The notes under the pieces were generated by a model. The model saw only the letters and a list, made by a program, of their open reading frames with translations. It searched no databases and was not told the origin of the DNA. A DNA stretch of 64,000 bases. Source: a virus. Taxonomy: Duplodnaviria > Caudoviricetes. Positions 2,884 through 41,294 of the stretch are shown here, piece by piece. How positions within the stretch are numbered: position 1 is the first letter of the stretch; each line of letters starts with the position of its first letter. A program made the translations under genes and the position numbers. The stretch lies in IMG/VR virus record IMGVR_UViG_3300020042_012633, positions 8,492-72,491 of that record, one strand, 5' to 3'.

Positions 2884-4254
2884 TTACAGTTGAAGTTTAG
2901 ATCCTATTGTAATTCCGAAGGTTGTTTTAGATTCTGGATTAGTATTTGCTACTACGTTGCCTCCTAGATTGGCTTTGAATCTTTTTGTTAATGGAAAATC
3001 AAAATTAGACCCTACAATATAAGTAAAGTACTTTGTAATGGTAAATGTATTTGGAATTGCTGTGTAACTTATTGGAGAGAGTGAAGCTGCTACCATTGGA
3101 GAAATAACTATTCTTTTTACTGGGAATGGTTTAGTCATAAAGAATGTTGCTGAGGGTGATAGCATTACGTCTCTTCCTATAAAAATTGCTGTGAATCCAA
3201 ATGCATATCCAGCTACTAATCCTTTTTTTAATAAAAATACATCATTTGCTCCTAAGGAAACAACCTCAGTTCCAAACATAGACATTACTGTTATACTTTG
3301 TCCTGATATTTTATAAATTGATCCCTTTACGTAGTATCCTCCTATTTCCTCTCCTTGTATTTTTATTGGTATTCTTTTATCATGATTGAATAAAATTGTA
3401 GTTTTAGAAGCTGATAGTGAGAATTGTTTTAAGTTTGACCATATCATTGAGTTAGCACTATAGGAAGTTTCTCCTGTGAGGGAGCTTTGGGACATTCCAA
3501 AAGAAGCTACTTGTGAGAAAGTGCCATCTGCATTTTGATTGTTCATCATATTTGCAGCAATCATTACAGGATTGGTTGATTGTTGTTTTTTCTTACTCTC
3601 TTCTTTTTTCTTTTCCTGTTTCTTTTCTTCTTTTTTTTCTTCCTTCTTCTCCTCTTTCTTTTCCTCTTTTGTTTCTTCTTTCTTTTCTTCTTTCGATTCG
3701 GATTTGGTTTCAGACTTTGATTCAGATTTGGTTTCGCTTGTGCTCTCTGTTTTACTTTCAGTTGGAGCAGGAGCTGCTTCACTTGTAGTTGAACTTGGAG
3801 CAGGTGCTTCTACCGTTGGAGCCTCTACTGTTGGTGCTTCTACTGTTGGTACGGGTGTACTAGTAGCAGCGGAGGCAGCTGCAGAAGCTGCTGCACTTGC
3901 ACTTGCTGCTGCTGCTTGAGTTGCTGCTTGAGTAACAGACTCGGTAATTGTTTTTGTAATTATTGCTTTGGTTTCTTCTAGAATGACTTCTGCTGGTGGA
4001 GTTGTTGGACATGGATTTAGTGAAGTATACCATTGGTAGGTTACTTCTAGCCAAGCCTGCAATGCACCTGCTTGTGCTTGCTCTGCTGTCATTATAGTAT
4101 ACTTACTGTAGTATGTAACTACAGTTTGTCCTTGAGAAGCTATAGTAAATACAAGTACCTCACCTGTACACCTATCTGTGTAGGTTTGAATTACATTTTG
4201 ACCATAGGTGCAAAATCCTACAAGTAGGAGTAGTATATGAAGTACTTTTTTCAA
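2884..4254 (-). CDS. Secreted protein: small N-terminal domain, A/P/T- and K/E-rich linker, predicted C-terminal outer-membrane beta-barrel
   Basis: TTG start; signal peptide ending CTYG|Q; two Cys in the N-domain; (KEEK)n linker; C-terminal ~230 aa of alternating hydrophobic strands ending FGITIGSKLQL. Confidence 0.75.
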   Translation of the reverse strand: MKKVLHILLLLVGFCTYGQNVIQTYTDRCTGEVLVFTIASQGQTVVTYYSKYTIMTAEQAQAGALQAWLEVTYQWYTSLNPCPTTPPAEVILEETKAIITKTITESVTQAATQAAAASASAAASAAASAATSTPVPTVEAPTVEAPTVEAPAPSSTTSEAAPAPTESKTESTSETKSESKSETKSESKEEKKEETKEEKKEEKKEEKKEEKKQEKKKEESKKKQQSTNPVMIAANMMNNQNADGTFSQVASFGMSQSSLTGETSYSANSMIWSNLKQFSLSASKTTILFNHDKRIPIKIQGEEIGGYYVKGSIYKISGQSITVMSMFGTEVVSLGANDVFLLKKGLVAGYAFGFTAIFIGRDVMLSPSATFFMTKPFPVKRIVISPMVAASLSPISYTAIPNTFTITKYFTYIVGSNFDFPLTKRFKANLGGNVVANTNPESKTTFGITIGSKLQL

Positions 4255-4256
4255 GT

Positions 4257-4976
4257 CTAGTTAGTAAAAACTTGTTTTTGAATCATTCTCTTAACAACTT
4301 TAGCTGTAGCTGATTCTAGTGCTTTCTTAGTTGCAGTACCAATACTTGATTGATTAAATTTTACTTCTTCTAAGTTTTCATTATTTAATAAAGTAACCTC
4401 TCTTGTTGTAATTGATTTTCCTAATCCTGAACCTGTCATGTATGTTCCAGATTGTGAGTCTACCATCTTAACTTGAAGTCCCAGTCTTGTTACCAAGCTA
4501 TTTTTTACTCCATCTTTTAGATTAATTGTTTCATCTTCTGAGATTGAAAAATCATATACCTCTATGTAGCAGAAGTATTTTGCTAGTACAATATTTCCTT
4601 TTAGTTCAATTTTCTCTGTAGATAATCCTTTCTGAGATGCTTTGTATTGATTAACCATTCTATCTTTGATAGCATCTTTTGTTTCTACGAATTCGAATCT
4701 GAATGTTTCTTCTAGAAAAGCTATTACGATATTGGTAAGTCCAAGACCTACTCTATAATCTCCAAGTTCTGGATATTGATCTATTACCTCTTTACTAACT
4801 CCTATTTCAAGTAGGGCAACAGGAATGGGCTTGCCATTATATTCAGGAATGGAATATATTGATTCCTTACCTTCAAATCCTGCTTGATAGTCCTCTGTTG
4901 TTGTTTTGCCTATTACTTGTCCAAAAGTAAAATGGCCTATAAGAATACAGGCCATTAATATTAATTTCTTTACCAT
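4257..4976 (-). CDS. csgG: CsgG-family (curli secretion channel / TolB-N-like fold) protein
   Basis: Signal peptide TFG|Q; pattern PVALLE...VGLGLTNIVIAFLEETFRFEFVE...LGLQVKMVDSQSGTYMTGSGLG matches CsgG-like proteins; recognised by eye. Confidence 0.75.
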   Translation of the reverse strand: MVKKLILMACILIGHFTFGQVIGKTTTEDYQAGFEGKESIYSIPEYNGKPIPVALLEIGVSKEVIDQYPELGDYRVGLGLTNIVIAFLEETFRFEFVETKDAIKDRMVNQYKASQKGLSTEKIELKGNIVLAKYFCYIEVYDFSISEDETINLKDGVKNSLVTRLGLQVKMVDSQSGTYMTGSGLGKSITTREVTLLNNENLEEVKFNQSSIGTATKKALESATAKVVKRMIQKQVFTN

Positions 4977-4995
4977 AAGTGTATCCTTATTTATA

Positions 4996-5316
4996 TTACC
5001 AATCTAATCCGTCTTCTTTTCTTTTCTCTGTTTCAGTTTTCTTAGGCTTAGCTACTACAGCTGGTGCTGCTTGTGAAGGAGATGCTTTCTCCTTAATGAT
5101 AATAGTTTTACCTGCTGCTTGTTGAGATTGTTGGTTTGTGTTTGTAATGTTGATTACAGGTGCTGCTGCAGGAGCTGCTACTTCTGTTTTGTCCTCTCCA
5201 TTGTCTCCAGTTAATTTATTTGTAACGTACCCTCCTACTCCTAGAGTGATAGTACTTATTAATCCAATTAAGATACTTTTAATTGAACCTCCTCCTGCTT
5301 CTGCTTCTTCTGCCAT
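4996..5316 (-). CDS. Small single-pass membrane protein with Pro/Ala- and N/Q-rich extracytoplasmic tail
   Basis: Hydrophobic helix ILIGLISTITLGVGGYV, then PAAAPVINITNTNQQSQQ. Confidence 0.75.
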   Translation of the reverse strand: MAEEAEAGGGSIKSILIGLISTITLGVGGYVTNKLTGDNGEDKTEVAAPAAAPVINITNTNQQSQQAAGKTIIIKEKASPSQAAPAVVAKPKKTETEKRKEDGLDW

Positions 5317-5323
5317 TTTGTTT

Positions 5324-5707
5324 TTATTTAGTTGTTGTGTCGGACATTGAGAACGATTCTCTTCCTATTATTTTATTATCTTCAGTTTGTAATTCAACAG
5401 TATAAGAGCTAACTGGTAAAGCTGATACATAGATGCTTAGGATGTTATCACCTTCTTTTCCTATTACTTTTTCTTGACTTACTAAGTCTCCAGTAAAGTC
5501 ATAAATTTTAATTTTATAAGTACCTGCTGTTGCTAATTTACTATTAATTTTTACTTGTTTGTCTACTATGTAACTCTCTAATTTAAGTCCCTGAGTTTCT
5601 GTTATTACTAAGGAGTTGTCTATTTGTTGTGTTGGAAGATTCTCTAGTGCTGGATCTTGAGAGCATGCTACCAAGGTTAGTGCTATTAGTGCTAATATTT
5701 TTTTCAT
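5324..5707 (-). CDS. Lipoprotein with a T9SS C-terminal sorting domain-like Ig fold
   Basis: Lipobox LVA-C; C-terminal pattern YKIKIYDFTGDLVSQ...SIYVSALPVSSYTVEL resembles the Por secretion tail (IYDxxG...LxxGxYxV). Confidence 0.7.
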   Translation of the reverse strand: MKKILALIALTLVACSQDPALENLPTQQIDNSLVITETQGLKLESYIVDKQVKINSKLATAGTYKIKIYDFTGDLVSQEKVIGKEGDNILSIYVSALPVSSYTVELQTEDNKIIGRESFSMSDTTTK

Positions 5708-5708
5708 G

Positions 5709-7343
5709 TTATTGTATTTTTAAGATTACTTTAGTTCCGTCTTGCTTAACTGCTTCTGCTAGTTTAAAATAAATTAACCCTGCTGTGTTTGTTATTGGAG
5801 TTTTTGTATTAAATATTAATTTATAAGGAGTTCCAGTTTTAATTGCTGTTAGTCCTGTTGAATCTAAACTACCAATGTAAAGAGTATTGCCTCTTGGAGT
5901 AGCAAAGTTTGTTGCTTGATTACCTGTATCAAACTTTACTGAATCGAATTCAAGTACTGATTGGTCATATTGTATGTTGAATTGGATACCTGCTAGTTGT
6001 TCCATTGTTAAATTAGTTGTCAACACTACTTTACCATCTACTAATGAAGTTGATACTTCTAAGTTATAGGTTTCAGCATTTGCAGCTATCTTAGCTTTAG
6101 AAGCAATCGTTCTCATAGCAGATGAATTATAGTTTGTTGATCCTTGTGCTGTAGGAACGTATGAGTGTGAAAAATCTACGTCTCCTTGAAATCCATGTAC
6201 AAAGTCAAATACTTTTTCTGCATCTGTTGGTCTGATGTATTGATTCTGTCCGAAGTAGTACTGGTCTGTTGATGCTCCGTAATTCTCTATTCTACCCCAA
6301 ACATTTTTACCACCATTAGCAGATGAAGTAAACCAACCACTTGTATTAGTTCCTGTGATATGATTTAACATTACATATGAATCATCAAAATCAACAACAC
6401 CATCATTTGTAACCTCTCCTAAGAGATACTGAATTTGATAACTAAAAATATTGGCAATATCTTCAGGACCTGTTGTAGAAGCTCCAATGGCTTGTTTAAA
6501 GTTTAAAAATGCATCCGATACTGTTACTACATCATTTAACCAACTCCATGCTATGTTATTATCAACCTCAACATAAACGTGATAATCAACATCATTTACT
6601 AATCCTGGTACAGCTGCAGTTCCTGTTGAATCAAAATATCCTTGAGCTACTGTTTGTTGTGTTCCAGTATGTTCTATTCTATATGTGTAATATGCTTTAT
6701 TTGGAACGGGTGTATATAATCTAAGGAAAACAGTACCAGCATCTCCTCCTTTTACAGGTGATAATGCAAGAGTTTGATTTTGAGCTACAACATCATAAAT
6801 GGTTGTTGGGGATTGTTTTTGAAACTTTGCCCAGTTTAACATAGTTACTTTACTGTAGTCTGTATATCCATAAGGAAATTTATCTTTAATTCTAAATCTT
6901 ACATAAATCCAAGGTGTTGAAGACGGAAGTGTTTTAGTAGATTGAATTGTAATTCTTTCTACTGACCAATCTGGATTAGATGGATATGATCCATTTGCTC
7001 CAGTATTCCAAGTGTGCTGTTTAGTTAAGTTATCAATACCATATCTTGTATCAGGATTGAACTTGTAACCATCCCAGTGATTTAATGTAGTTTGTATACC
7101 TGTTATCTGTCCTGTAGGAGTAAAGGTATGGTCTACTTTTTCTAGTAACTTGTTATTGTATTGGTAATCAAATTGAACTAAGTTGGGAGTGGCTGATTGA
7201 TAGATCCCCTCAAACTTAATTGTAATAATGTCTCCTACATTAAACCCATTGGTATTAGGGGTTATGCAGCTTTGAGATAGATAGGCGCTTTGTCCAAAGG
7301 ACATTAAAGGTAACAGTGCCAGTAGCACTAATAATTTTTTCAT
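5709..7343 (-). CDS. Secreted protein with cohesin-like and dockerin-like domains
   Basis: Signal peptide MSFG|Q; cohesin-like segments VQFDYQYNNKLLEKV (N-term) and LAGIQFNIQYDQSVLEFDSV (C-term); dockerin/EF-hand-like loop LLGEVTNDGVVDFDDSYVMLNHI. Confidence 0.7.
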   Translation of the reverse strand: MKKLLVLLALLPLMSFGQSAYLSQSCITPNTNGFNVGDIITIKFEGIYQSATPNLVQFDYQYNNKLLEKVDHTFTPTGQITGIQTTLNHWDGYKFNPDTRYGIDNLTKQHTWNTGANGSYPSNPDWSVERITIQSTKTLPSSTPWIYVRFRIKDKFPYGYTDYSKVTMLNWAKFQKQSPTTIYDVVAQNQTLALSPVKGGDAGTVFLRLYTPVPNKAYYTYRIEHTGTQQTVAQGYFDSTGTAAVPGLVNDVDYHVYVEVDNNIAWSWLNDVVTVSDAFLNFKQAIGASTTGPEDIANIFSYQIQYLLGEVTNDGVVDFDDSYVMLNHITGTNTSGWFTSSANGGKNVWGRIENYGASTDQYYFGQNQYIRPTDAEKVFDFVHGFQGDVDFSHSYVPTAQGSTNYNSSAMRTIASKAKIAANAETYNLEVSTSLVDGKVVLTTNLTMEQLAGIQFNIQYDQSVLEFDSVKFDTGNQATNFATPRGNTLYIGSLDSTGLTAIKTGTPYKLIFNTKTPITNTAGLIYFKLAEAVKQDGTKVILKIQ

Positions 7344-7813
7344 AGTTTTAGTTTTTCAATTAATTGTTCACACAACTTTTTAAGTGCTGATGAAACGTTT
7401 GTTTGAGAAAACTTGCCTCCTGAATCTATAATCAATGTTGCTGTTGAAATAGATTTTGCTTGGCCTTTTACTACAACTGTTTTTAATTCCTTCCCGTCTA
7501 ATAACAGTTTACCTTGTGCAATTATTTCAGTTACTTCTACAGTATTACCGTAGACTGCTAATTGCATGCTTGTACTCTTTACATCAAAGTAGAGAATATC
7601 TATCGTTAAAATTTTTTGTGATTGTGGGTCCAAATCGTACCCTTTTTCTTGAATTACTTCTTCAAGAATGTTTTTGATACCGAAGGCTAGGTCTCTATTA
7701 CCTGCCAGCGGTCCCATTACAATATTATTTTTAATATCACCTATTTTTATAGACTGTTGTGCAGAAACACTTATTCCAAATAGGAGAGATATTAACATAA
7801 AAAAAAGTTTCAT
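7340..7813 (-). CDS. Secreted alpha/beta protein (CsgG/LptE-like periplasmic fold candidate)
   Basis: Likely start ATG 7813 (MKLFF...SVSA|Q signal peptide) rather than 7840; stop overlaps the next start. Confidence 0.7.
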   Translation of the reverse strand: MKLFFMLISLLFGISVSAQQSIKIGDIKNNIVMGPLAGNRDLAFGIKNILEEVIQEKGYDLDPQSQKILTIDILYFDVKSTSMQLAVYGNTVEVTEIIAQGKLLLDGKELKTVVVKGQAKSISTATLIIDSGGKFSQTNVSSALKKLCEQLIEKLKL

Positions 7814-7871
7814 ATCTACTATATAAAGGTTAAAAAACATTTATAAAACAGTTAATATAAAACTTCTTTAA

Positions 7872-7880
7872 AATAAATAG
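7872..7880 (-). promoter_or_regulatory. Putative late-promoter variant (CTATTTATT) upstream of the envelope operon
   Basis: One-mismatch copy of the TATTTATA motif that precedes structural genes; lies in the intergenic gap. Confidence 0.4.
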
Positions 7881-11104: not shown

Positions 11105-12457
11105 TTAGAATGGAACTTGATTCTCCAATTCAAAGAACTTATTCGCGATTTCTTTAAAATTTCCTCTAGGTCTATCTCCTGATTCAAGTGGTGCCATGTT
11201 TCCTAGAATCTCTATGTGTCCGTTGTTTGTATCTACTTTTGCATCCCAAGTCATACCGTCCATTCCGTATCTATTTTTCATAACGTGGATACGTCCTGTT
11301 CCTAATACCTTATCTTCTTTCATTCTTGATAAAGATAAACATACATCCGCCACCATCATCTTGTCATAAGACCCTGCTGCTTTATCTCCTTCGATAACTG
11401 AATCCTTTGCTCCCATTCTATTAACTTGAGATGGGGTAAGAATAGGTATCTGTAGTTCCTTAGCCAATCCTTTTGTTGCAATGAATACATCATCGATTTC
11501 ATCTTTTCTTTCTGTGAAACGAGATTTTGAAGGTGCTTTCAAGTAATCGACATAATCAATAATAATCATATCTGGTTTATGATCCATATCGATACATTTC
11601 TGGATGTGTGCTTTGATTGTGTTTATTGAAGCTCCTTTTGGTGGATATTCTTTTACGATTAGTTTTCCTTTAAGTTTACCTACAATTTTTTCTACTTCTG
11701 CTCTATGTTTGTTTACTTCTTCAATTCCGTAACCTGTTAGGTAACAGTCAAATCGTTTTCCTACATAATCTTCTCCAAGTTCTAAAGTATAGAAGTTTAC
11801 ATTGTATCCCATTAACACTGCATGTGCTGCTGCAGCTACCATTGTCCATGACTTTCCTCCTCCAGGATTTCCAAACATGATAATCAAATCACCAGGACCA
11901 AATCCTCCACCAATTGTTTCATTAAGTATTGGCCAAGGTGTTGGTATAGTAGGTCTGTAGTTTTCTCTGTAACGACTCTCTACATCTTTATTATATTCAT
12001 GACCCATATTTTTATCCATACCAGCTCTCATGGCTTTTTCAATCACTCCTCTGATTCCATCAAAGTCTCCTTGGTTTAGAAGATCTGCTGAGTTGAGTAG
12101 TGCTGCTTTGAGTTCTTGGTTTTTGGCGAACGTGGTAAATTCTTCTACTACGTATGCTAAATCATCTTGAGTTGCTTCGTAGCAGTTTCTTAATTCTGCT
12201 TTGACTGCTACTTGTAGAATATCATTTTCTACTTTTTGTAGTTCAATCTTTAATGCTTCTAAAGAGATTGTAGTGTGATACTTGTCATAGTACTTGATTG
12301 TAGTTTCTAGAATCCATTTATGGGCATCTGAATCGAAGTAGTCTGGTTGTAGTAGTTCTCTTGTGTTGAGTAGGAACTTCTTGTCTGTTAGGAGTGCTCC
12401 TAGCACTTTCAATTGAAAGCCTTTCCCGTAGGAAGATAGTTTTGCTAATGATGTCAT
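11105..12457 (-). CDS. dnaB: Replicative DNA helicase (DnaB / T4 gp41-like)
   Basis: Walker A GNPGGGKS, IIIDYVDYL, SQVNR, KNRYG. Confidence 0.93.
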   Translation of the reverse strand: MTSLAKLSSYGKGFQLKVLGALLTDKKFLLNTRELLQPDYFDSDAHKWILETTIKYYDKYHTTISLEALKIELQKVENDILQVAVKAELRNCYEATQDDLAYVVEEFTTFAKNQELKAALLNSADLLNQGDFDGIRGVIEKAMRAGMDKNMGHEYNKDVESRYRENYRPTIPTPWPILNETIGGGFGPGDLIIMFGNPGGGKSWTMVAAAAHAVLMGYNVNFYTLELGEDYVGKRFDCYLTGYGIEEVNKHRAEVEKIVGKLKGKLIVKEYPPKGASINTIKAHIQKCIDMDHKPDMIIIDYVDYLKAPSKSRFTERKDEIDDVFIATKGLAKELQIPILTPSQVNRMGAKDSVIEGDKAAGSYDKMMVADVCLSLSRMKEDKVLGTGRIHVMKNRYGMDGMTWDAKVDTNNGHIEILGNMAPLESGDRPRGNFKEIANKFFELENQVPF

Positions 12458-18365: not shown

Positions 18366-21128
18366 TTAAGCGTACAGGTTTTTATCTTTTTCAATCTTAC
18401 CCCAGTAGCTGTCAAACTTTTGCTGTCTGTCTGCTAATCCGTTTGTTCCTCCATTTACTCTCTTAGATACTGCTCTTACATTTGCATCCGAACTTCCAGC
18501 CTTTGCTAACCCTGTTATTCCTCTTGAAAGGTATTTCCACCAGTAGCATGCTGAGTCTGCTGCAAAATAGTTGGACTCTAGGAGTTTTGAATTATTCATT
18601 ATATCTGCTTTAGATCCTATAGACTTTAAATAGTTTTGGTATTGTTGGTAATTAGCTCTACCAGTAATTTGAATATATCCTCTTCCTTTAAACTTAACTC
18701 CATCACCCTTTTGGGTATTTCCTAAGGCTTTTCTTCCTTCGTAAGCTGCTCCTGATGCAAATTCTTTCTTCCATGCAAAACCTCCTGATTCGTGAGCACA
18801 TTGTGCAAGGAAGTGAGCTCTTTCTAATGGAGAGGTAATTCCGTACCGTCTCATAGCTTCTACAAGTTCAGTTGGTGGAACCTTTGTTGGTTTAGACATA
18901 CTTGACTGCCTTTCTACATTAGATTCTCTATTGGCAACATCTCTTGCTGTTATACCAGGTACTTGTCCTGCTGCTGCTACTTCATCGGCATCGGGAAGCT
19001 CTGTTGAGTAAAACTGCGTTGTAACAGAAGTTTCCCACTTATTTGAGGAATCTATATTATGTTCAAGACCTGTTATTATATATCCGAACTTGTCTTGATA
19101 CTTACTTGGAAGTATTCCTGCTCCTATTTTAAATGCCTGCCCTATTATAAATCCACCTATTCCATCTAACTTAAATGAAAGTTCTACAGGAACAAGTCCT
19201 GGCATTGCTGCTTTGTTTTGGGTTCTGTATTTTTTTACTACATTTTCAATAGTCCATTCTGCATGCATGGTTTTGATAGATTCCATGTCTTCTTTTTTGT
19301 ACCCATCATTTGAATTAAATTTCATAAATAGCACCATTACATCTTCTACCCACTTAGCTGTCCTATCTGCTAGTTCTTGTTTAGCATTAGCTGCCGCAGT
19401 TTCGGCATCTTTATCTATTGTAGTTTTTACTACTTTTAGTCTATCTATTATTCCTGTATTCCATCTTAATATATTTTCTATATATTCATTTGTACCTGAA
19501 GCGCTACCTTGTGCTGCAATGGATATTTGAGATGCTATTTCGTTACTGATCTTACTGCTGATTCCTACATCAGTAAATACACTTCCTATTCCTGCTAAAG
19601 TAAATACCGGATGTGTTGCTGCATTTTCTGGTGTGTTGTTTCTATCAATTACTGACCATGTTCCTGCTTCATCTTCTTCATCATAGGCTAGTCCTAGATC
19701 GTTAATTCCTCCAAGTGCTGTATTAACTCCCTCAAGAATGCTTTCCGTAATATCATACATACTTTTATTAAACTTTCCATTTTCATCTAAAGCACCATCT
19801 AATGTGGATTTTAAATAAGCAAGTGTTATATAGATATTAAGAACGTCCTCTACAACTCCTACAGGTGGAGTTCCGGTGTGTGGAGATGTTACTGATACAA
19901 AAGAGGGCTTAGCTAGTACGCAAACTGTTGGATCTATTGAAAAATGTTCAGGACTTGTAAGAAAGGTATTGGACTTTGCATAGTCTGTATTAAACCTAGC
20001 AATTACTCTATCTGCAGTTCCTTTTGGCTTAGTAGGATCTACTGGTGATATTAATGTGTTAAATAGATCAAATAATAGTCTTAGCGATATCCAATGCGTT
20101 GGAATGTCTGTATCAATAAGTCCTCCCCAACTACCACCATCTAATTGTACATTCTGGTAGTATCCTACATGGTCTGAAAGAAGGCCATTACCAGGAGTTC
20201 CTAGTACTTCTTTTATTTTAGAGCTATCGAAACTAGTATCTGTAACTGTAGCCATTTTGTTTATGAAAAAATGGTACATACTTTTACGCTGCTCTTTTCC
20301 TGTTTCTGAATCTACTGGTTCAAGTTGAGCTCCTCTTTGTGCTGGATCGAATCTTAGTTGTATAGATTCTAGGATTTCTCCTTGGGATATTATTGAAACG
20401 CTGCAGTCATATCCTCCATCAGGTGTATAGCTCCATGAGAAGTTCTTAATATAGCCAATCATCCCCTCGTAGTTATTATCAGCAGATGTTCTTATTTGTT
20501 TAATTGAAGCTGCTACATTTGACATCTTTATCCCATTGGAAAAAAAGCCATTAGGTACTGTTTGAATATCTTTTTGAAGAGCTCCACTATTATTAACGTA
20601 TAGAGAATGTCCCCACTCTAGGAGAACTGTATATCCTGGTCGAAGATATAGCTCCTCCATTAATTCAAAATCCTCCAGAGTCCAACACATAAACTTTACT
20701 TCCGCTTCTCTTAGCGTACCGTATGTATTTTTTGACTTTACATTCATAGAAGTTATTCCAGGCATTGGTCTTATTCCTGTACTATCCATTCTATTGTTAT
20801 AGGCTGCATTTTGATTATACGCTCCTGTAGTATCGATTCCTTTTCGTAATCCTCTAAGTGGGGTTTGTACTCCTCCAAGAAGTACGTTGTATCCTGCTCT
20901 TTTACTATCTCCTAAAATTTTAGTAGGATCCATTCCCCCTCTTAGTTGCTTAACTTGTCCAATAGATAGTGTATTCACTGAGGAAGACATTTTTATCCAA
21001 CCAGTTTTTGAGTTTAGGTATAGTAGGTCTTCGTTTGTTCTTCCAACCTTTTTTTCTATGATCGCCTTCCTAGCTGCAATTTGATCAGCTACTAACGGTG
21101 AAACTGACTTGCCATGTGCTGTTGCCAT
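18366..21128 (-). CDS. Baseplate hub-like protein fused to a C-terminal GH19 (chitinase-like lysozyme) domain
   Basis: N-terminal RPMPGITSMNVKSK...LREAEVKF...LYLRPGYTVLLEWG hub-like pattern; C-terminal AHFLAQCAHESGGF...FKGRGYIQITGRANY...RVNGGTNGLADR is GH19. Confidence 0.85.
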   Translation of the reverse strand: MATAHGKSVSPLVADQIAARKAIIEKKVGRTNEDLLYLNSKTGWIKMSSSVNTLSIGQVKQLRGGMDPTKILGDSKRAGYNVLLGGVQTPLRGLRKGIDTTGAYNQNAAYNNRMDSTGIRPMPGITSMNVKSKNTYGTLREAEVKFMCWTLEDFELMEELYLRPGYTVLLEWGHSLYVNNSGALQKDIQTVPNGFFSNGIKMSNVAASIKQIRTSADNNYEGMIGYIKNFSWSYTPDGGYDCSVSIISQGEILESIQLRFDPAQRGAQLEPVDSETGKEQRKSMYHFFINKMATVTDTSFDSSKIKEVLGTPGNGLLSDHVGYYQNVQLDGGSWGGLIDTDIPTHWISLRLLFDLFNTLISPVDPTKPKGTADRVIARFNTDYAKSNTFLTSPEHFSIDPTVCVLAKPSFVSVTSPHTGTPPVGVVEDVLNIYITLAYLKSTLDGALDENGKFNKSMYDITESILEGVNTALGGINDLGLAYDEEDEAGTWSVIDRNNTPENAATHPVFTLAGIGSVFTDVGISSKISNEIASQISIAAQGSASGTNEYIENILRWNTGIIDRLKVVKTTIDKDAETAAANAKQELADRTAKWVEDVMVLFMKFNSNDGYKKEDMESIKTMHAEWTIENVVKKYRTQNKAAMPGLVPVELSFKLDGIGGFIIGQAFKIGAGILPSKYQDKFGYIITGLEHNIDSSNKWETSVTTQFYSTELPDADEVAAAGQVPGITARDVANRESNVERQSSMSKPTKVPPTELVEAMRRYGITSPLERAHFLAQCAHESGGFAWKKEFASGAAYEGRKALGNTQKGDGVKFKGRGYIQITGRANYQQYQNYLKSIGSKADIMNNSKLLESNYFAADSACYWWKYLSRGITGLAKAGSSDANVRAVSKRVNGGTNGLADRQQKFDSYWGKIEKDKNLYA

Positions 21129-28814: not shown

Positions 28815-28833
28815 TTTATTTTATTTATTTTAT

Positions 28834-28841
28834 TATAAATA
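28834..28841 (-). promoter_or_regulatory. Putative late promoter TATTTATA upstream of the tail tube gene
   Basis: Intergenic copy. Confidence 0.6.
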
Positions 28842-28855
28842 TCTTTGTTTATAAA

Positions 28856-30961: not shown

Positions 30962-30988
30962 GTTTTTATAATTTGTTTTTTAATTTAT

Positions 30989-30996
30989 TATAAATA
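30989..30996 (-). promoter_or_regulatory. Putative late promoter TATTTATA upstream of the tail sheath gene (second copy at 31046-31054)
   Basis: Two intergenic copies. Confidence 0.6.
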
Positions 30997-31085
30997 TACT
31001 ACGGTTTTGGGAAACCGTCCTATAGTGTTAGGTTCTATATTCTGTTATAAATAGTAACCAACTATCAAAACCGTTCTGCAGGTTG

Positions 31086-34700: not shown

Positions 34701-35327
34701 AATGGTTCCTCCAGTTAAAGGAAGATATAGTGGTGCAAAAGATGCTGTTAATGCATTAGATGCACTTAGTGCATATGAGGCACTTAAGGCAGGATTAGCA
34801 CTTGTATGTATTAGTCCGTTTACATAAGATGCAGTTTGTGCTGTTACAATGTATGATGCTGTTAATGCATTTGATGCACTTAAGGCTCTATTTGTACTTG
34901 TAAATATTGAACCTGTTACAAAAGAAGCACTTTGTGCTGTTATAATGTAAGATGCTGTTAATGCATTTGATGCACTTAATGCATATGAGGCACTTAAGGC
35001 AGGATTAGCACTTGTAAATATTGAACCTGTTACAAAAGAAGCTGTTCCGAATAGAGATCCTGTTATTGAACCGTTTACTTTTAATGATCCTGTTATTTCA
35101 ACTACAGAATCGTATGCATATATTAAGTTTGATCGAGCTACATCTGCTGTTCCGTTTCCATGAATAAAAGCTCCTGCTACTGATGATGAAATACTAAACT
35201 GACCTTGTACGTGTTGATAGTCTCCTGATGCTATTGTATAGTATCCTTCTGCATGTGAAGAAATTCCTGATGCTAGTGTGGAAGTTCCTTCTGCGTGTGA
35301 ATAAGATCCTGATGATGTTGTGCTGTC
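31761..35327 (-). CDS. Tail fibre/adhesin, downstream segment (open frame without its own start; continuation of 36256)
   Basis: Manual translation shows the frame of ORF 31761-34067 stays open up to 35327, encoding more SHAEG repeats, FIHGNGT modules and SASYA stalks; C-terminal Gly-rich domain. Confidence 0.85.
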   Translation of the reverse strand, partial: DSTTSSGSYSHAEGTSTLASGISSHAEGYYTIASGDYQHVQGQFSISSSVAGAFIHGNGTADVARSNLIYAYDSVVEITGSLKVNGSITGSLFGTASFVTGSIFTSANPALSASYALSASNALTASYIITAQSASFVTGSIFTSTNRALSASNALTASYIVTAQTASYVNGLIHTSANPALSASYALSASNALTASFAPLYLPLTGGTINGNLTIAGTASIAYLNVTFESASVIYSSGSNQFGDATNDTQTLIGTVIVSGSQQITGPLTQGIAGNIASGQFSHAEGFFTSASGQYSHAEGANTIASGSSSHAEGESTIASGFASHAEGVTNYENFTNPIPLNTITYIEFAGLDFNSTSDINLYIEPTSITVTGDYSSSLVVPFTLNSLHLQNSNYEYTVDLSKFPPTPIITSATYDAFNDLTQFFFNPPLQSTYYDPTGVVVNTASGYGSHVEGVGTKAQGIGSHAEGFGTVALGNYQHAQGQFNITSSVAGAFIHGNGTSDINRSNLIFTSGSQVQITGSLRVSGSITGSLFGTASFITGSIFTSTNRALSASNALTASFITGSIFTSTNRALSASNALTASFVTGSIFTSANPALSASYALTASFITGSIFTSANPALSASFAVSASFAVSASFAVSASFATTASYALNAGESKNGFPFSGSAVITGSLLVSGSGLTVTGPVRITGSLTQGTEGNIASGQFSHAEGGGVGLGTSMNISTVTSMVVNGISLPTVNLATTTIIEADDNRTSGFPAAPFTITSLILTSGSTTITPNLSQYASAIISSSNYDPNLGSNGTTYFNFTTNPLQSIYYDAVNVPNTALGTGSHAEGIGTIAKGDFQHVQGQYNITSSAQSAFIHGNGTSTGFRSNLIFASGSQVQITGSLKVSGSITGSLFGTASYITGSIFTSANPALSASFAVSASFAVSASFAVSSSRAVSSSFATTASYALNAGESKNGFPFSGSAVITGSLLVSGSLLVNGVRPGETGNIIVTSGTSFTTPADTTTATVYIVELVGGGGGGGGGNGSGGSGAGGGGGGYVYEKLTGLTASTTYTCNIGASGSGGASAANGTAGTSTTLIIGLTTYTATGGGFGIGAASSIGGIGGTGTDGDINIPGQNGQSSGAVSINVPTGAGGNSPKGWGNGGPSVITSKTGSIGTGFGAGGSGGKSATFVGGNGTPGIIYCQYYN
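32404..32509. repeat. About 106-nt direct repeat (second copy 33304-33409) with adjacent 18-nt tandem SASFAV repeats
   Basis: Identical segments 900 nt apart; (actgcaaaagatgcactt)n follows. Confidence 0.85.
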
Positions 35328-36256
35328 CCTTCTGCATGTGAAGAAATTCCTGATGCTAGTGTAGATTGTCCTTCTGCATGTGAACCTGCTCCTGATGCTG
35401 TTCCACCAGCTTCATCTACCCAGTCGTCTCCATCAAAATATCGACCTCCCCCTTCTGCATGGGAATAGTATCCGCTTGCAGCAGCTACATTTCCTTCTGC
35501 ATGTGATGCATATCCTGATGCTATTGTGCTCTCTCCTTCGGCATGTGAATAGTCTCCTGATGCTATTGTATTAGACCCCTCTGCATGTGAAGAAATTCCT
35601 GATGCTAGTGTAGATTGTCCTTCTGCATGTGAGTAGTCTCCTTGTGCTGTTGCGCTACTTCCTTCTGCATGTGAAGATTGGCCTGATGCTAGTGTAGATT
35701 GGCCTTCTGCATGTGAGTAGACTCCATATGCCACTGTAATATTTCCTTCTGCATGTGCACTTTTTCCTGATGCTGTTGTACCCTTTCCTTCTGCATGTGA
35801 ACCTGCTCCTGATGCTGTTCCACCAGCTTCATCTACCCAGTCGTCTCCATCAAAATATCGACCTCCCCCTTCTGCATGGGAATAGTATCCGCTTGCAGCA
35901 GCTTCATATCCCTCTGCATGTGAATAAGGTCCTGATGCTGATGTATCAATTCCTTCTGCATGTGAGGCTTCTCCAGATGCTAGTGTAGATTGTCCTTCTG
36001 CATGTGAACCATATCCTGATGCTACTGTATTATCTCCTTCTGCATGTGAGTAGTTTCCTGATGCTATTGTATTTGCTCCTTCTGCATGGGAAGCTGTTGC
36101 TGATGCTATATTTCCTGGAGATCCTTGAGTAAAAGATCCTGGTATGTATAAAGAAGAGGTTGTAAACGTAGCTTGATTAACTCCGTCCACAGTAATTGTT
36201 ATAGCGCTTTGGCTGAGTTGGTTAAAACCGTTAGGGATTTTGCCTATAAAATTCAT
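35273..36256 (-). CDS. Tail fibre/adhesin, upstream segment with about 20 SHAEG repeats; breaks at 35327-35329
   Basis: 14-aa SHAEGxxTxASGxx repeats (YadA-head-like beta-roll); the last 13 residues are off-frame. Confidence 0.85.
   Translation of the reverse strand: MNFIGKIPNGFNQLSQSAITITVDGVNQATFTTSSLYIPGSFTQGSPGNIASATASHAEGANTIASGNYSHAEGDNTVASGYGSHAEGQSTLASGEASHAEGIDTSASGPYSHAEGYEAAASGYYSHAEGGGRYFDGDDWVDEAGGTASGAGSHAEGKGTTASGKSAHAEGNITVAYGVYSHAEGQSTLASGQSSHAEGSSATAQGDYSHAEGQSTLASGISSHAEGSNTIASGDYSHAEGESTIASGYASHAEGNVAAASGYYSHAEGGGRYFDGDDWVDEAGGTASGAGSHAEGQSTLASGISSHAEGTAQHHQDLIHTQKELPH
35369..35486. repeat. Exact 118-nt direct repeat, copy 1 (copy 2 at 35786-35903)
   Basis: Identical sequence encoding AASGYYSHAEGGGRYFDGDDWVDEAGGTASGAGSHAEG; offset 417 nt. 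Confidence 0.9.
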
Positions 36257-41233: not shown

Positions 41234-41252
41234 GTTATTTGTTTATTTTTAT

Positions 41253-41260
41253 TATAAATA
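41253..41260 (-). promoter_or_regulatory. Putative late promoter TATTTATA upstream of the neck genes
   Basis: Intergenic copy. Confidence 0.6.
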
Positions 41261-41294
41261 TCAACCTATTTCAATAGCTAGTATTTTTGTAGAA

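What the first reader, a model, noticed from the sequence alone, without database searches (positions are those of the whole stretch)
2884..7880. Phage-encoded six-gene envelope/secretion module: CsgG-like protein, cohesin/dockerin protein, T9SS-CTD-like lipoprotein and predicted beta-barrel
Seen: six tightly coupled genes (0-19 nt gaps or a 4-nt overlap), every one exported. Four have SPI-type signal peptides, one is a lipoprotein and one has a membrane anchor. Order: 157-aa secreted alpha/beta protein, 544-aa cohesin/dockerin-like protein, 127-aa CTD-like lipoprotein, 106-aa anchored protein, CsgG-like protein, 456-aa protein with a long flexible linker and C-terminal amphipathic strands. 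Established: CsgG forms an outer-membrane secretion channel for curli, and csgG/csgF homologues have been described in some T4-like marine phages. Inference: no curlin-repeat gene is present, so this looks like a different, self-contained phage machine that builds or exports a non-curli structure in the infected cell envelope. Candidate roles are superinfection exclusion, receptor masking, infected-cell aggregation or virion release. A variant of the late-promoter motif sits upstream, hinting at late expression.
Basis: partly seen in the sequence, partly recalled or inferred. Interest (0 to 1): 0.85.

Follow-up and report, generated by a model that had tools for sequence, protein, structure and literature searches.

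The report
Phage-encoded cell-envelope module with CsgG-like proteins
A group of widespread freshwater and marine Flavobacterium-type phages carries a tightly conserved six-gene cassette of exported proteins that most likely remodels the surface of the infected cell; its parts are now identified, but its purpose has not been tested.

Summary
Six back-to-back minus-strand genes (7813 to 2884) all encode exported proteins. They keep the same order in all 34 related viral contigs that span the region.

- The 239-aa protein is a divergent CsgG-superfamily member, by transitive Pfam hits, a PDB profile hit, and a fold match of Z 11.6.
- The C-terminus of the 456-aa protein models as a 14-stranded outer-membrane barrel (CymA/OmpG, Z 17).
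- The genes are co-conserved.

New findings:
- The 157-aa protein is a short paralogue of the CsgG-like protein.
- The 106-aa anchor ends in an invariant DW.
- In two other phage lineages the cohesin protein carries a fused, canonical type IX secretion (T9SS) sorting domain. This points to display on the cell surface through the host's T9SS.

Cautions:
- In this lineage the CsgG-like protein has no lipid anchor, and its hairpins are charged and almost invariant. A curli-type membrane channel is therefore doubtful.
- No CsgF or curlin gene is present.
- The late-promoter hint is no better than chance.

CsgG/CsgF genes without a fibre subunit are already described in pelagimyophages and methylophages. 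I therefore rate this a new variant of a known kind, with function untested. This stretch was also noted by other first-stage readers of the same genome.

The parts
7340..7813 (-). p157: secreted protein (signal peptide then Gln). It is a short paralogue of the CsgG-like protein that lacks the long helix 2 region.
   Evidence: hhalign of its family (A3) against the p239 family (A1): probability 94.6%, E 6.4e-8, 127 columns. Weak Pfam Lipoprotein_16/YajG hit. Present in all 34 loci. The immuto gp019 counterpart matches at hhalign 86%.
5709..7343 (-). p544: secreted multidomain binding protein and the most variable gene of the set (23-56% identity). Domains in order: N-terminal cohesin-like region, Ig-like domain (residues 192-276), dockerin-type Ca-loop motif TNDGVVDFDDSYVML (residues 312-326), C-terminal cohesin (about 410-535).
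   Evidence: Pfam Cohesin E 3.6e-5 for this copy; 13 of 15 family members hit it, best 4.2e-8. The family profile hits MpAFP RII (E 6.5e-7) and scaffoldin cohesins (E 3.3e-4); the dockerin hit is only E 0.28. The Atlas gives a cohesin lead for the N-terminal part. Invariant columns cluster in the C-terminal cohesin.
5324..5707 (-). p127: lipoprotein (LVAC|SQD) made almost entirely of one small beta-sandwich of the T9SS C-terminal-domain / DUF3244 type. In most relatives the residues after the Cys match the Bacteroidota lipoprotein export signal.
   Evidence: Por_Secre_tail E 5.6e-6, exactly at the cut-off of 27.0 bits. 8 of 15 members hit Por_Secre_tail and 9 of 15 hit DUF3244. Relatives read C-A-K-D-E-E, C-T-Q-D-E-E and C-V-R-D-E-E, against the published optimum C-X-K-(D/E)2-X (PMC5080379).
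4996..5316 (-). p106: inner-membrane anchor. It has a short acidic N-terminus, one membrane helix (residues 11-31), a low-complexity periplasmic tail and an invariant C-terminal ...DW.
   Evidence: Positional homologues of 74-110 aa lie in every locus, and all end in DW. Immuto gp016 ends in ESW. No family match.
4257..4976 (-). p239: divergent CsgG/HfaB-superfamily protein predicted to form head-to-tail oligomers. It has a signal peptidase I signal and no lipobox. The YPEL motif (residues 68-71) lies where CsgG has its constriction loop. Hairpins 144-164 and 186-207 are charged and nearly invariant.
   Evidence: The window copy has no direct Pfam hit, but 17 of 38 aligned homologues hit Pfam CsgG, best 1.9e-17. 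The profile hits E. coli CsgG at E 3.7e-5. AF2 model pLDDT 82. The Foldseek top 10 are all CsgG. VIA Z 11.6 with rmsd 3.8 over 157 residues, against PelC 9.4 and LptE 8.9. Four-copy fold: score 0.78, best control 0.00.
2884..4254 (-). p456: tethered outer-membrane barrel. A small two-Cys N-terminal domain (residues 20-85, nt 4000-4197) is followed by a disordered linker of about 140 aa rich in Ala/Ser/Thr/Pro and then Glu/Lys (nt 3568-3999). The C-terminus is a 14-stranded beta-barrel (residues 230-456, nt 2887-3567) ending ...ITIGSKLQL.
   Evidence: AF2: barrel pLDDT 85-90, linker below 50. Foldseek hits are all outer-membrane barrels. VIA: CymA Z 17.6 (rmsd 2.5 over 209 residues) and OmpG 16.6-16.9. 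The family consensus ends GSKFQF and linker length varies. The family has no Pfam match.
7867..7880 (-). Weak match (CTATTTATTTTAAA) to the recurrent ATATTTATAATAAA motif, in the 74-nt gap upstream of the first gene.
   Evidence: 3 mismatches of 14, which is not above chance at that stringency.

Best explanation
This is a portable phage cassette that builds a multi-protein assembly in the envelope of the infected Flavobacteriia cell and uses it to put cohesin-type binding proteins on the cell surface.

**Shown here, by sequence and models**
- All six products leave the cytoplasm through Sec, with Bacteroidota-style signals.
- p456 is a 14-stranded outer-membrane barrel. Its small disulfide domain hangs on a long flexible tether, and it sits in the periplasm if the barrel has the usual topology.
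- p239 and its short paralogue p157 have the CsgG/PelC/LptE-type alpha/beta fold.
- p239 is predicted to pack head to tail, as ring-forming relatives do.
- p106 is anchored in the inner membrane and ends in an invariant DW.
- p544 carries cohesin and dockerin-like modules.
- p127 is a lipoprotein made of a T9SS-CTD-like sandwich.

**Inferred**
- p239, possibly with p157, forms a periplasmic ring under the outer membrane. The ring works with the p456 barrel, much as PelC works with PelB or LptE with LptD.
- p106 ties the assembly to the inner membrane.
- The variable cohesin protein is the payload. In two sister lineages it reaches the surface through the host's type IX secretion system, because there it carries a canonical C-terminal sorting domain.
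- In this lineage that domain sits on the neighbouring lipoprotein p127, which has a surface-export signal in most relatives.

**Likely consequence, not shown**
- Changed adhesion or aggregation of infected cells, or masking of surface receptors.

**My odds**
- About 0.85 that this is one co-functional envelope module with these folds.
- About 0.45 that its job is surface display or adhesion remodelling.
For: **Co-conservation**
- The gene order is the same in 34 of 34 spanning loci.
- These include complete genomes of 65, 66 and 114 kb with terminal repeats, and flanking genes differ between them.
- p239 is 68-92% identical, even in phages whose RNR alpha is only about 60% identical.
- More than 5,000 metagenomic homologues exist.

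**Folds**
- CsgG-like.
- Paralogue p157.
- Barrel.

**Self-association of p239**
- Score 0.78 against a best control of 0.00 among three controls.
- The mark was reached by 20 of 30 proteins solved as pairs of one chain and by 1 of 23 solved as single chains.
- The runs agree in at least 96% of contacts, and partner pLDDT is at least 80.
- My own alignment and four copies were used, unlike the calibration. CsgG rings are solved, so the pass may be from memory.

**Link to T9SS**
- Immuto gp015 is Cohesin (5.9e-9) plus Por_Secre_tail (2.4e-8).
- The L055 647-aa protein is Cohesin (3e-11) plus Por_Secre_tail (2.1e-8). It lies beside a lipidated CsgG-like gene and an N-domain-plus-barrel gene.
- A Cloacimonadota MAG has two T9SS-CTD proteins directly upstream of a CsgG-like gene. 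That gene is followed by a 413-aa protein with the same layout: signal peptide, N-domain, Lys/Glu linker, and a C-terminus ending ...GANYRF.

**Payload pattern**
- p544 is the most variable gene, while its C-terminal cohesin holds most of the invariant columns.
Against: - No experiment or expression data exist.
- No contact between different proteins of the module was tested.
- p239 has no lipid anchor in this lineage, so how it is held at the outer membrane is unknown.
- p544 itself has no sorting domain. The window's p127 matches the lipoprotein export signal only partly (C-S-Q-D-P).
- The p127 match to the T9SS domain sits exactly at Pfam's cut-off and is equalled by DUF3244, so it may be just a small Ig-like sandwich.
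- The very high conservation of p239 fits a core step of infection, such as lysis, better than an accessory adhesion trait.
- The bacterial parallel rests on one MAG locus. Its barrel protein shows no detectable sequence similarity to p456.
Confidence: 0.45

Rival explanations
1. The module is an outer-membrane permeabilising or lysis-timing device. The p456 barrel, or a p239 pore, opens the outer membrane late in infection, or admits larger solutes. This is what has been proposed for phage CsgG/CsgF in pelagimyophages and methylophage Melnitz. p106 and p127 would bridge the two membranes.
For: - p239 is as conserved as, or more conserved than, RNR alpha, as expected for a core step of infection.
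- CymA and OmpG, the best barrel matches, are wide monomeric channels.
- The pair of an inner-membrane anchor and an outer-membrane lipoprotein encoded side by side recalls two-component spanins.
- The uptake and lysis ideas are published for phage CsgGF (PMC7029224; PMC9004378).
Against: - This reading does not explain the cohesin/dockerin protein, or its T9SS sorting domain in sister lineages.
- p127 is a folded beta-sandwich rather than a short Pro-rich o-spanin, and the gene order is the reverse of i-spanin then o-spanin.
- No endolysin or holin lies next to the module. In immuto the endolysin is about 6 kb away.
- The p239 hairpins are too charged to face lipid.
Confidence: 0.2
2. The module is a self-contained type-VIII-like secretion machine. 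p239 forms a CsgG-type channel across the outer membrane, and one of the other products, for example unfolded p544, passes through it to build a non-curli fibre or matrix.
For: - The CsgG fold is the best match.
- The conserved YPEL motif aligns with the CsgG constriction loop.
- Oligomerisation is predicted.
- More distant homologues, including the L055 phage copy, are lipoproteins like CsgG.
- From my own knowledge of the family: the CsgG relative HfaB exports non-curli holdfast-anchor proteins.
Against: - There is no lipobox in this lineage.
- Hairpins 144-164 and 186-207 carry 7 and 5 charged residues and are almost invariant, unlike lipid-facing strands.
- Some homologues are fused behind a kinase and a membrane helix, or in front of a caspase domain. 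That suggests a periplasmic module rather than a membrane pore.
- No CsgE, CsgF or curlin gene was found.
- A separate true barrel gene is always adjacent.
Confidence: 0.15
3. The module excludes superinfecting phages by interfering with the host's own surface machinery. A lipid-anchored decoy sorting domain (p127), together with the ring and barrel proteins, would jam or retarget type IX secretion and so remove gliding or T9SS-dependent phage receptors.
For: - p127 is little more than a lipid anchor plus a CTD-like domain.
- The module is linked to T9SS cargo in three settings.
- From my own knowledge, not checked here: loss of T9SS or gliding functions is a common route to phage resistance in Flavobacterium.
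Against: - No match to known defence or exclusion families was found.
- In sister lineages the sorting domain is an ordinary fused cargo tail, not a decoy.
- Nothing here shows that p127 binds PorV or SprA.
Confidence: 0.12
4. There is no joint function. The six genes are a run of unrelated exported accessory genes that merely travel together.
For: - The region lies in a variable part of the genome, between nucleotide-metabolism genes and small ORFs.
- In immuto and L055 the content differs: a lectin, a nuclease and extra membrane proteins appear.
Against: - The order is fixed, with near-zero spacing, in 34 of 34 loci. These loci come from genomes of 65 to about 160 kb, judged from complete relatives of 65, 66 and 114 kb and the 160-kb immuto genome. 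The flanks differ between them.
- Block boundaries fall exactly at p157 and p456.
- The same core (cohesin protein, small anchor, CsgG-like protein, tethered barrel) recurs in two more distant lineages.
Confidence: 0.05

Closest known systems
Phage-encoded partial curli (type VIII) clusters: CsgG and CsgF of pelagimyophages (HTVC008M group) and methylophage Melnitz (PMC7029224, PMC9004378)
   Same: - A CsgG-fold gene sits in a small operon of exported proteins.
- The operon lies in a myophage, between the replication and structural modules.
- No curlin subunit gene is present.
- The function is unknown; ideas include uptake, lysis timing and 'sibling capture'.
   Different: - Those CsgG genes are recognisable curli-type genes with CsgF, in phages of Proteobacteria.
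- Here the protein is missed by Pfam, has no lipid anchor in this lineage and has a short paralogue.
- It comes with a tethered 14-stranded barrel, a cohesin/dockerin protein, a CTD-like lipoprotein and an inner-membrane anchor.
- No CsgF is present. The hosts are Bacteroidota.
E. coli CsgG, the curli secretion channel (PDB 4UV3, 6L7A)
   Same: - The fold matches: Z 11.1-11.6 over 157-174 residues.
- The profile matches at E 3.7e-5.
- A conserved Tyr-Pro motif lies at the position of the constriction loop.
- Head-to-tail oligomers are predicted.
   Different: - About 8-10% identity.
- No lipidated Cys.
- The hairpins are shorter, charged and invariant.
- No CsgE, CsgF, CsgA or CsgB partners.
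PelC-PelB and LptE-LptD: ring or plug lipoproteins of the same fold class that work with an outer-membrane barrel
   Same: - A small alpha/beta protein of this fold class (PelC Z 9.4, LptE Z 8.9) is encoded next to an outer-membrane barrel. PelB appears among the p456 barrel matches (Z 13.6).
   Different: - The barrel here has 14 strands and no TPR or jellyroll domain.
- No polysaccharide or LPS genes are nearby.
- No sequence relationship was shown.
- The ring-barrel contact is my inference and was not tested.
T9SS cargo proteins with type A C-terminal domains, and cargo-specific barrels such as PorP/SprF (the barrels from my own knowledge)
   Same: - Sister lineages encode cohesin proteins with a canonical Por_Secre_tail domain beside the barrel gene.
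- A bacterial locus places two CTD proteins directly upstream of the CsgG-like and barrel pair.
   Different: - In the window the CTD-like domain is a separate lipoprotein.
- Neither p456 nor 37 relatives match any Pfam outer-membrane family, PorP_SprF included.
- No T9SS core gene was identified in the phage proteins examined; the whole record was not searched for T9SS families.
Cohesin-dockerin scaffolds of cellulosomes
   Same: - A cohesin domain is present, with a dockerin-type Ca-loop motif in the same protein. This would allow chains or docking.
   Different: - There are no enzymes, no Pfam dockerin match (best PDB profile E 0.28) and no SLH anchor.
- The setting is a phage of Bacteroidota.

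Membership tests
CsgG/HfaB superfamily (Pfam PF03783) | Sequence match to the family model | tested here: inconclusive
   The window protein gives no Pfam hit at E <= 1. However, 17 of 38 aligned homologues hit PF03783 (best 1.9e-17), and the family profile hits E. coli CsgG at E 3.7e-5. Membership holds by transitive homology, at the superfamily level.
CsgG/HfaB superfamily (Pfam PF03783) | CsgG alpha/beta fold | tested here: met
   AF2 pLDDT 82. The Foldseek top 10 are all CsgG, E about 4e-6. VIA Z 11.6, rmsd 3.8, 157 residues aligned, above PelC at 9.4.
Curli-type CsgG channel (type VIII secretion) | N-terminal lipobox and lipidated Cys that anchor it in the outer membrane | tested here: not met
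   The signal peptide ends ...FTFG|Q, as in all 30-odd close relatives. More distant homologues, including the L055 phage copy (VTGC), do have a lipobox.
Curli-type CsgG channel (type VIII secretion) | Two amphipathic hairpins that form the transmembrane barrel | tested here: inconclusive
   Long hairpins are modelled (strands 134-152 and 156-173). The tips read SISEDETINLKDGVKNSLVTR and GKSITTREVTLLNNENLEEVKF. They are charged and almost invariant, which argues against lipid contact.
Curli-type CsgG channel (type VIII secretion) | Ring oligomer | tested here: inconclusive
   Four-copy fold: score 0.78 against a best control of 0.00, with head-to-tail interfaces. This is in silico only, four copies rather than nine, and it may reflect solved CsgG rings.
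Curli-type CsgG channel (type VIII secretion) | Partner genes csgF and csgE, and curlin-repeat substrates | tested here: not met
   PF10614 (CsgF) and PF07012 (Curlin_rpt) give no match in the 72.5-kb record, in immuto (160 kb), or in three complete and one partial related genomes. The E. coli control was found. CsgE was checked only through Pfam scans of the six proteins.
Outer-membrane beta-barrel protein | Closed antiparallel barrel with a C-terminal aromatic or hydrophobic beta-signal | tested here: met
   Residues 230-456 are all-beta with pLDDT 85-90. All Foldseek hits are outer-membrane barrels. CymA Z 17.6 and OmpG Z 16.6-16.9. The family consensus ends GSKFQF; the window copy ends GSKLQL. 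This is a model, not a structure.
PorP/SprF T9SS barrel family | Sequence match to the family | tested here: not met
   Neither p456 nor 37 relatives hit this or any other Pfam outer-membrane family.
Cohesin (PF00963) | Match to the cohesin model | tested here: met
   24.4 bits against a cut-off of 24.1 for the window copy. 13 of 15 family members hit it, best 4.2e-8. Scaffoldin cohesins match at E 3.3e-4 in the PDB profile search.
Dockerin type I (PF00404) | Duplicated 22-residue Ca-binding segments | tested here: inconclusive
   There is one clear D/N-x-D-G-x-V-D-x-x-D loop at residues 312-326 and a degenerate GDVDFSHS at 387-394. There is no Pfam hit, and the PDB profile E is 0.28.
T9SS type A C-terminal sorting domain (PF18962 / TIGR04183) | Match to the model, at the C-terminus of a Sec-exported cargo | tested here: inconclusive
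   p127 scores 27.0 bits against a cut-off of 27.0. TIGR04183 gives 14.9 bits against 23. 8 of 15 relatives hit the family, and DUF3244 does equally well. The domain is C-terminal, but the 'cargo' is only a lipid anchor and a linker. By contrast, immuto gp015 and the L055 647-aa protein meet the definition fully.
Two-component spanin | Type II inner-membrane protein with a periplasmic coiled coil, plus a short Pro-rich outer-membrane lipoprotein, next to lysis genes | tested here: not met
   p106 is of the right membrane type, but its tail is short and low-complexity. p127 is a folded sandwich of 117-129 aa. The gene order is reversed, and no endolysin or holin is adjacent.

The most novel reading that the evidence does not exclude
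Many aquatic Flavobacteriia phages share a mobile cassette that makes the dying host build a cellulosome-like cohesin-dockerin scaffold on its own surface. The scaffold would be exported by hijacking the host's type IX secretion or lipoprotein-flipping routes. It would be held by a phage-made anchor consisting of a CsgG-fold ring, a tethered 14-stranded barrel and an inner-membrane strut. This would glue infected cells to particles or to sister cells, so that progeny find new hosts. In the window's lineage the sorting domain has been split off as a separate lipoprotein, which would imply piggy-back export of a folded partner through T9SS.
Probability: 0.2. Interest if true: 0.85.

Novelty: new variant of a known kind. 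Interest (0 to 1): 0.66.

Why it matters
- **Reach.** The CsgG-like gene has more than 5,000 near relatives in public metagenomes. It sits in complete phage genomes of 65 to 160 kb, and it is conserved as strongly as ribonucleotide reductase. Every copy is nevertheless annotated 'hypothetical'.
- **What it would add.** This would be a second, independent case, after the SAR11 and OM43 myophages, of phages carrying CsgG-fold envelope proteins without a fibre subunit. It would be the first tied to type IX secretion cargo and to a dedicated barrel.
- **It is testable.** The immuto phages and their host, Flavobacterium sp. LMO8, are in culture. The open question of why marine and freshwater phages carry these pore-like genes can therefore be tested directly.
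- **Ecology.** If the module changes adhesion or aggregation of infected Flavobacteriia, it bears on particle colonisation and carbon export in lakes and seas.

Tried and rejected
**Direct family scans**
- Direct scans of p239 gave no family assignment. Pfam and PHROGs returned no hits; NCBIfam gave only sub-threshold ABC-ATPase hits (E about 0.003, 17 bits against cut-offs of about 380); the PDB sequence search gave one chance hit at E 0.07. The link to CsgG needed a profile of distant homologues.
- PADLOC gave only a low-complexity hit for p456.
- A PDB profile search with the p456 N-domain (A7) found nothing, so its fold remains unassigned.
- The Pfam scan of 38 p456 relatives gave no family.

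**Searches for relatives**
- A genome-contig scan with p239 found no close relative in species-representative bacterial genomes.
- 'Relatives' cannot be drawn for a virus record.
- A phylum-wide search around the Cloacimonadota MAG found only distant CsgG-like genes in 9 other genomes of 81. The bacterial parallel therefore rests on one locus, plus one locus with tandem paralogues.
- P0260 found nothing in viral contigs.

**Weak or negative comparisons**
- hhalign of the MAG's 413-aa protein against the p456 family matched only the signal peptide.
- The L055 156-aa protein did not match the p157 family.
- The motif CCTTATATT is not enriched.
- Sigma-70 and terminator scans were uninformative.

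**Ideas considered and set aside**
- Virion structural proteins: all six have export signals.
- Spanins: see the membership test.
- An LpoB-like regulator of peptidoglycan synthases: only 7 of 38 homologues hit LpoB, and always more weakly than CsgG.

Full report
**Where the window lies.** The window is 64 kb of a 72.5-kb IMG/VR viral contig, estimated to be 44% complete. It encodes a tail sheath, a DnaB-type helicase, ribonucleotide reductase and a 4,666-aa giant protein. Its nearest named relative is Flavobacterium phage vB_FspM_immuto, a 160-kb myovirus from the Baltic.

**The observation.** Six minus-strand genes run from 7813 to 2884. Between them there is a 4-nt overlap, then gaps of 1, 7, 19 and 2 nt. 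The first gene starts at the ATG at 7813 and gives 157 aa, as in every relative.
- Four products have a signal peptide followed directly by Gln. This is the Bacteroidota 'Q-rule' (PMC5837995).
- One has a lipobox.
- One has a single N-terminal membrane helix.

The description is therefore correct.

**Co-conservation.** A scan of IMG/VR with the 239-aa protein returned 37 loci.
- tblastn plus ORF calling showed p157, p544, p127, p239 and p456 in the same order in all 34 loci that span the region.
- A small anchor protein lies in the p106 position in each of them, and always ends in DW.
- The flanks differ. RNR alpha lies upstream, lies downstream on the other strand, or is absent. The block boundaries fall at p157 and p456.
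- The block occurs in complete genomes of 65, 66 and 114 kb with terminal repeats, so it behaves as a cassette.
- p239 is 68-92% identical across these loci, even where RNR alpha is only about 60%. p544 ranges from 23 to 56%.
- More than 5,000 metagenomic proteins match p239. All but a handful are unnamed or called hypothetical.

**The 239-aa protein.**
- It has no direct family assignment in Pfam, PHROGs, NCBIfam or PDB sequences; the few sub-threshold hits look like chance.
- A full HMMER search found 222 clusters.
- Of 38 aligned full-length homologues, 17 match Pfam CsgG (best 1.9e-17) and 7 match LpoB.
- The profile hits E. coli CsgG at E 3.7e-5.
- The AF2 model has pLDDT 82. Its ten best Foldseek matches are all CsgG. 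VIA-align gives Z 11.6 (rmsd 3.8, 157 residues), above PelC at 9.4 and LptE at 8.9.
- The nearly invariant YPEL motif aligns with the Tyr-Pro of the CsgG constriction loop.
- Four copies fold into head-to-tail contacts. The score is 0.78, against a best control of 0.00 among three. The mark was reached by 20 of 30 proteins solved as pairs of one chain and by 1 of 23 solved as single chains. The runs agree in at least 96% of contacts and partner pLDDT is at least 80. My own alignment and four copies were used, and CsgG rings are solved, so the pass may show likeness only.

Two features of curli CsgG fail in this lineage.
- There is no lipidated Cys, although distant homologues have one.
- The two long hairpins are charged and almost invariant. 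This is not how lipid-facing strands look.

Some homologues are fused to a caspase domain, or sit behind a kinase and a membrane helix. I therefore accept the fold and superfamily, but not the claim of a curli-type membrane channel.

**The other products.**
- **p157** is a short paralogue of p239 (hhalign 94.6%, E 6.4e-8).
- **p456** has three parts. The first is a conserved two-Cys N-domain. The second is a disordered linker of variable length. The third is a C-terminal all-beta domain with pLDDT 85-90. The beta domain matches only outer-membrane barrels. The best matches are the 14-stranded CymA (Z 17.6, rmsd 2.5, 209 residues) and OmpG.
- **p544** has a C-terminal cohesin: 13 of 15 relatives hit Pfam. 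It also has an Ig-like domain matching MpAFP RII (E 6.5e-7), one clear dockerin-type Ca loop and probably a second cohesin-like domain at the N-terminus.
- **p127** is a lipoprotein whose single domain matches Por_Secre_tail at the cut-off, and DUF3244 about as well. In most relatives the residues after the Cys fit the Bacteroidota lipoprotein export signal (PMC5080379).

**Sister lineages give the best clue to function.**
- In immuto the block reads, in order along the strand: C-type lectin protein, 363-aa protein, gp015, small anchor (ends ESW), CsgG-like protein, tethered barrel, and then a p157-like gene.
- gp015 is Cohesin plus a canonical T9SS sorting domain (5.9e-9 and 2.4e-8).
- A third lineage (L055) has a 647-aa protein that is Cohesin plus Por_Secre_tail. 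After it come membrane proteins, a secreted nuclease and a p106-like anchor. Next is a CsgG-like protein that does have a lipobox. Last is a 306-aa protein whose N-domain matches that of p456 (96.6%) and which ends ...RVFF.
- A Cloacimonadota MAG has two T9SS-CTD proteins, then a CsgG-like gene. The next gene encodes a 413-aa protein with a signal peptide, an N-domain, a Lys/Glu linker and a C-terminus ending ...GANYRF.
- A Chitinispirillum MAG has tandem CsgG-like paralogues.

The recurrent core is therefore a cohesin-type T9SS cargo, a small anchor, a CsgG-fold protein and a tethered barrel.

**Interpretation.** The module most likely builds an envelope assembly that serves to display cohesin-type binding proteins on the infected cell, partly through the host's T9SS. 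The folds, export signals and synteny are shown here. The ring-barrel-anchor contacts, the surface location and the biological purpose are inferred.

The rivals are:
- outer-membrane permeabilisation or lysis timing, as proposed for phage CsgGF (PMC7029224, PMC9004378);
- a true type-VIII-like channel;
- exclusion by interference with T9SS;
- no joint function.

**Comparison with what is known.** No CsgF or curlin gene exists in this record, in immuto, or in three complete related genomes. The late-promoter hint is not above chance. Partial curli clusters are already described in phages of SAR11 and OM43. This is therefore a new variant of a known kind: a divergent, partly de-lipidated CsgG-fold pair, joined to a dedicated barrel and to T9SS-type cargo, in phages of Bacteroidota.

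**Limits.** No heteromeric contacts were tested. Only two proteins were folded.

Noticed in passing
window 28829-28842, 30984-30997, 41248-41261 (minus strand): The exact 14-mer ATATTTATAATAAA lies 15-25 nt upstream of the start of the tail-sheath gene and of two other structural-region genes. One-mismatch copies are at 93, 24184 and 57495. It is a likely late-promoter element of this phage group.
   Followed up: partly
window 41295-55295 (minus strand): There is a single 4,666-aa ORF. The opposite strand shows evenly spaced shadow ORFs of about 210 aa, which suggests long internal repeats. It is probably a giant fibre or adhesin-like virion protein.
   Followed up: no
window 18366-21128 (minus strand): This 920-aa protein has a C-terminal 170 residues that match endolysin and chitinase-type PHROGs (E 1.9e-38). 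It may be a virion-associated lysin rather than the lysis endolysin.
   Followed up: no
L002 (immuto) 11253-11984, and L055 2572-4515: Two phage proteins are complete T9SS cargo: a signal peptide, a cohesin domain and a canonical Por_Secre_tail domain. Phage-encoded T9SS substrates seem worth a study of their own.
   Followed up: partly
L055 4836-5420, and L002 14162-14740: In L055, a DNA/RNA non-specific endonuclease with a signal peptide ending in Gln (Endonuclease_NS, E 8.8e-28) lies inside the module. In immuto, a gene annotated as nuclease NUC1 lies beside it; I did not check that one for a signal peptide. The L055 enzyme, at least, would be secreted by the infected cell.
   Followed up: no
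L003 and L005, 2269-6484: In two close relatives the variable part is duplicated. There are two p544-like genes and two p127-like lipoprotein genes in tandem.
   Followed up: no
proteins P0283, P0291, P0338, P0324, P0344, P0341: Some cellular homologues of the CsgG-like domain are fused to a C-terminal caspase-like domain. Others sit behind a Ser/Thr kinase and a membrane helix. This points to a periplasmic role in sensing or assembly for this subfamily.
   Followed up: no
L040 1532-9899 (Cloacimonadota MAG) and L041/L044 (Chitinispirillum MAG): These are bacterial counterparts. In the first, two T9SS-CTD proteins are followed by a CsgG-like lipoprotein and a tethered barrel-like protein. In the second, CsgG-like paralogues lie in tandem. 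This may be an undescribed cellular system.
   Followed up: partly
window 35273-36256 (minus strand): This 327-aa protein matches phrog_25468 (unknown function) in four separate stretches, which suggests an internally repeated structural protein.
   Followed up: no
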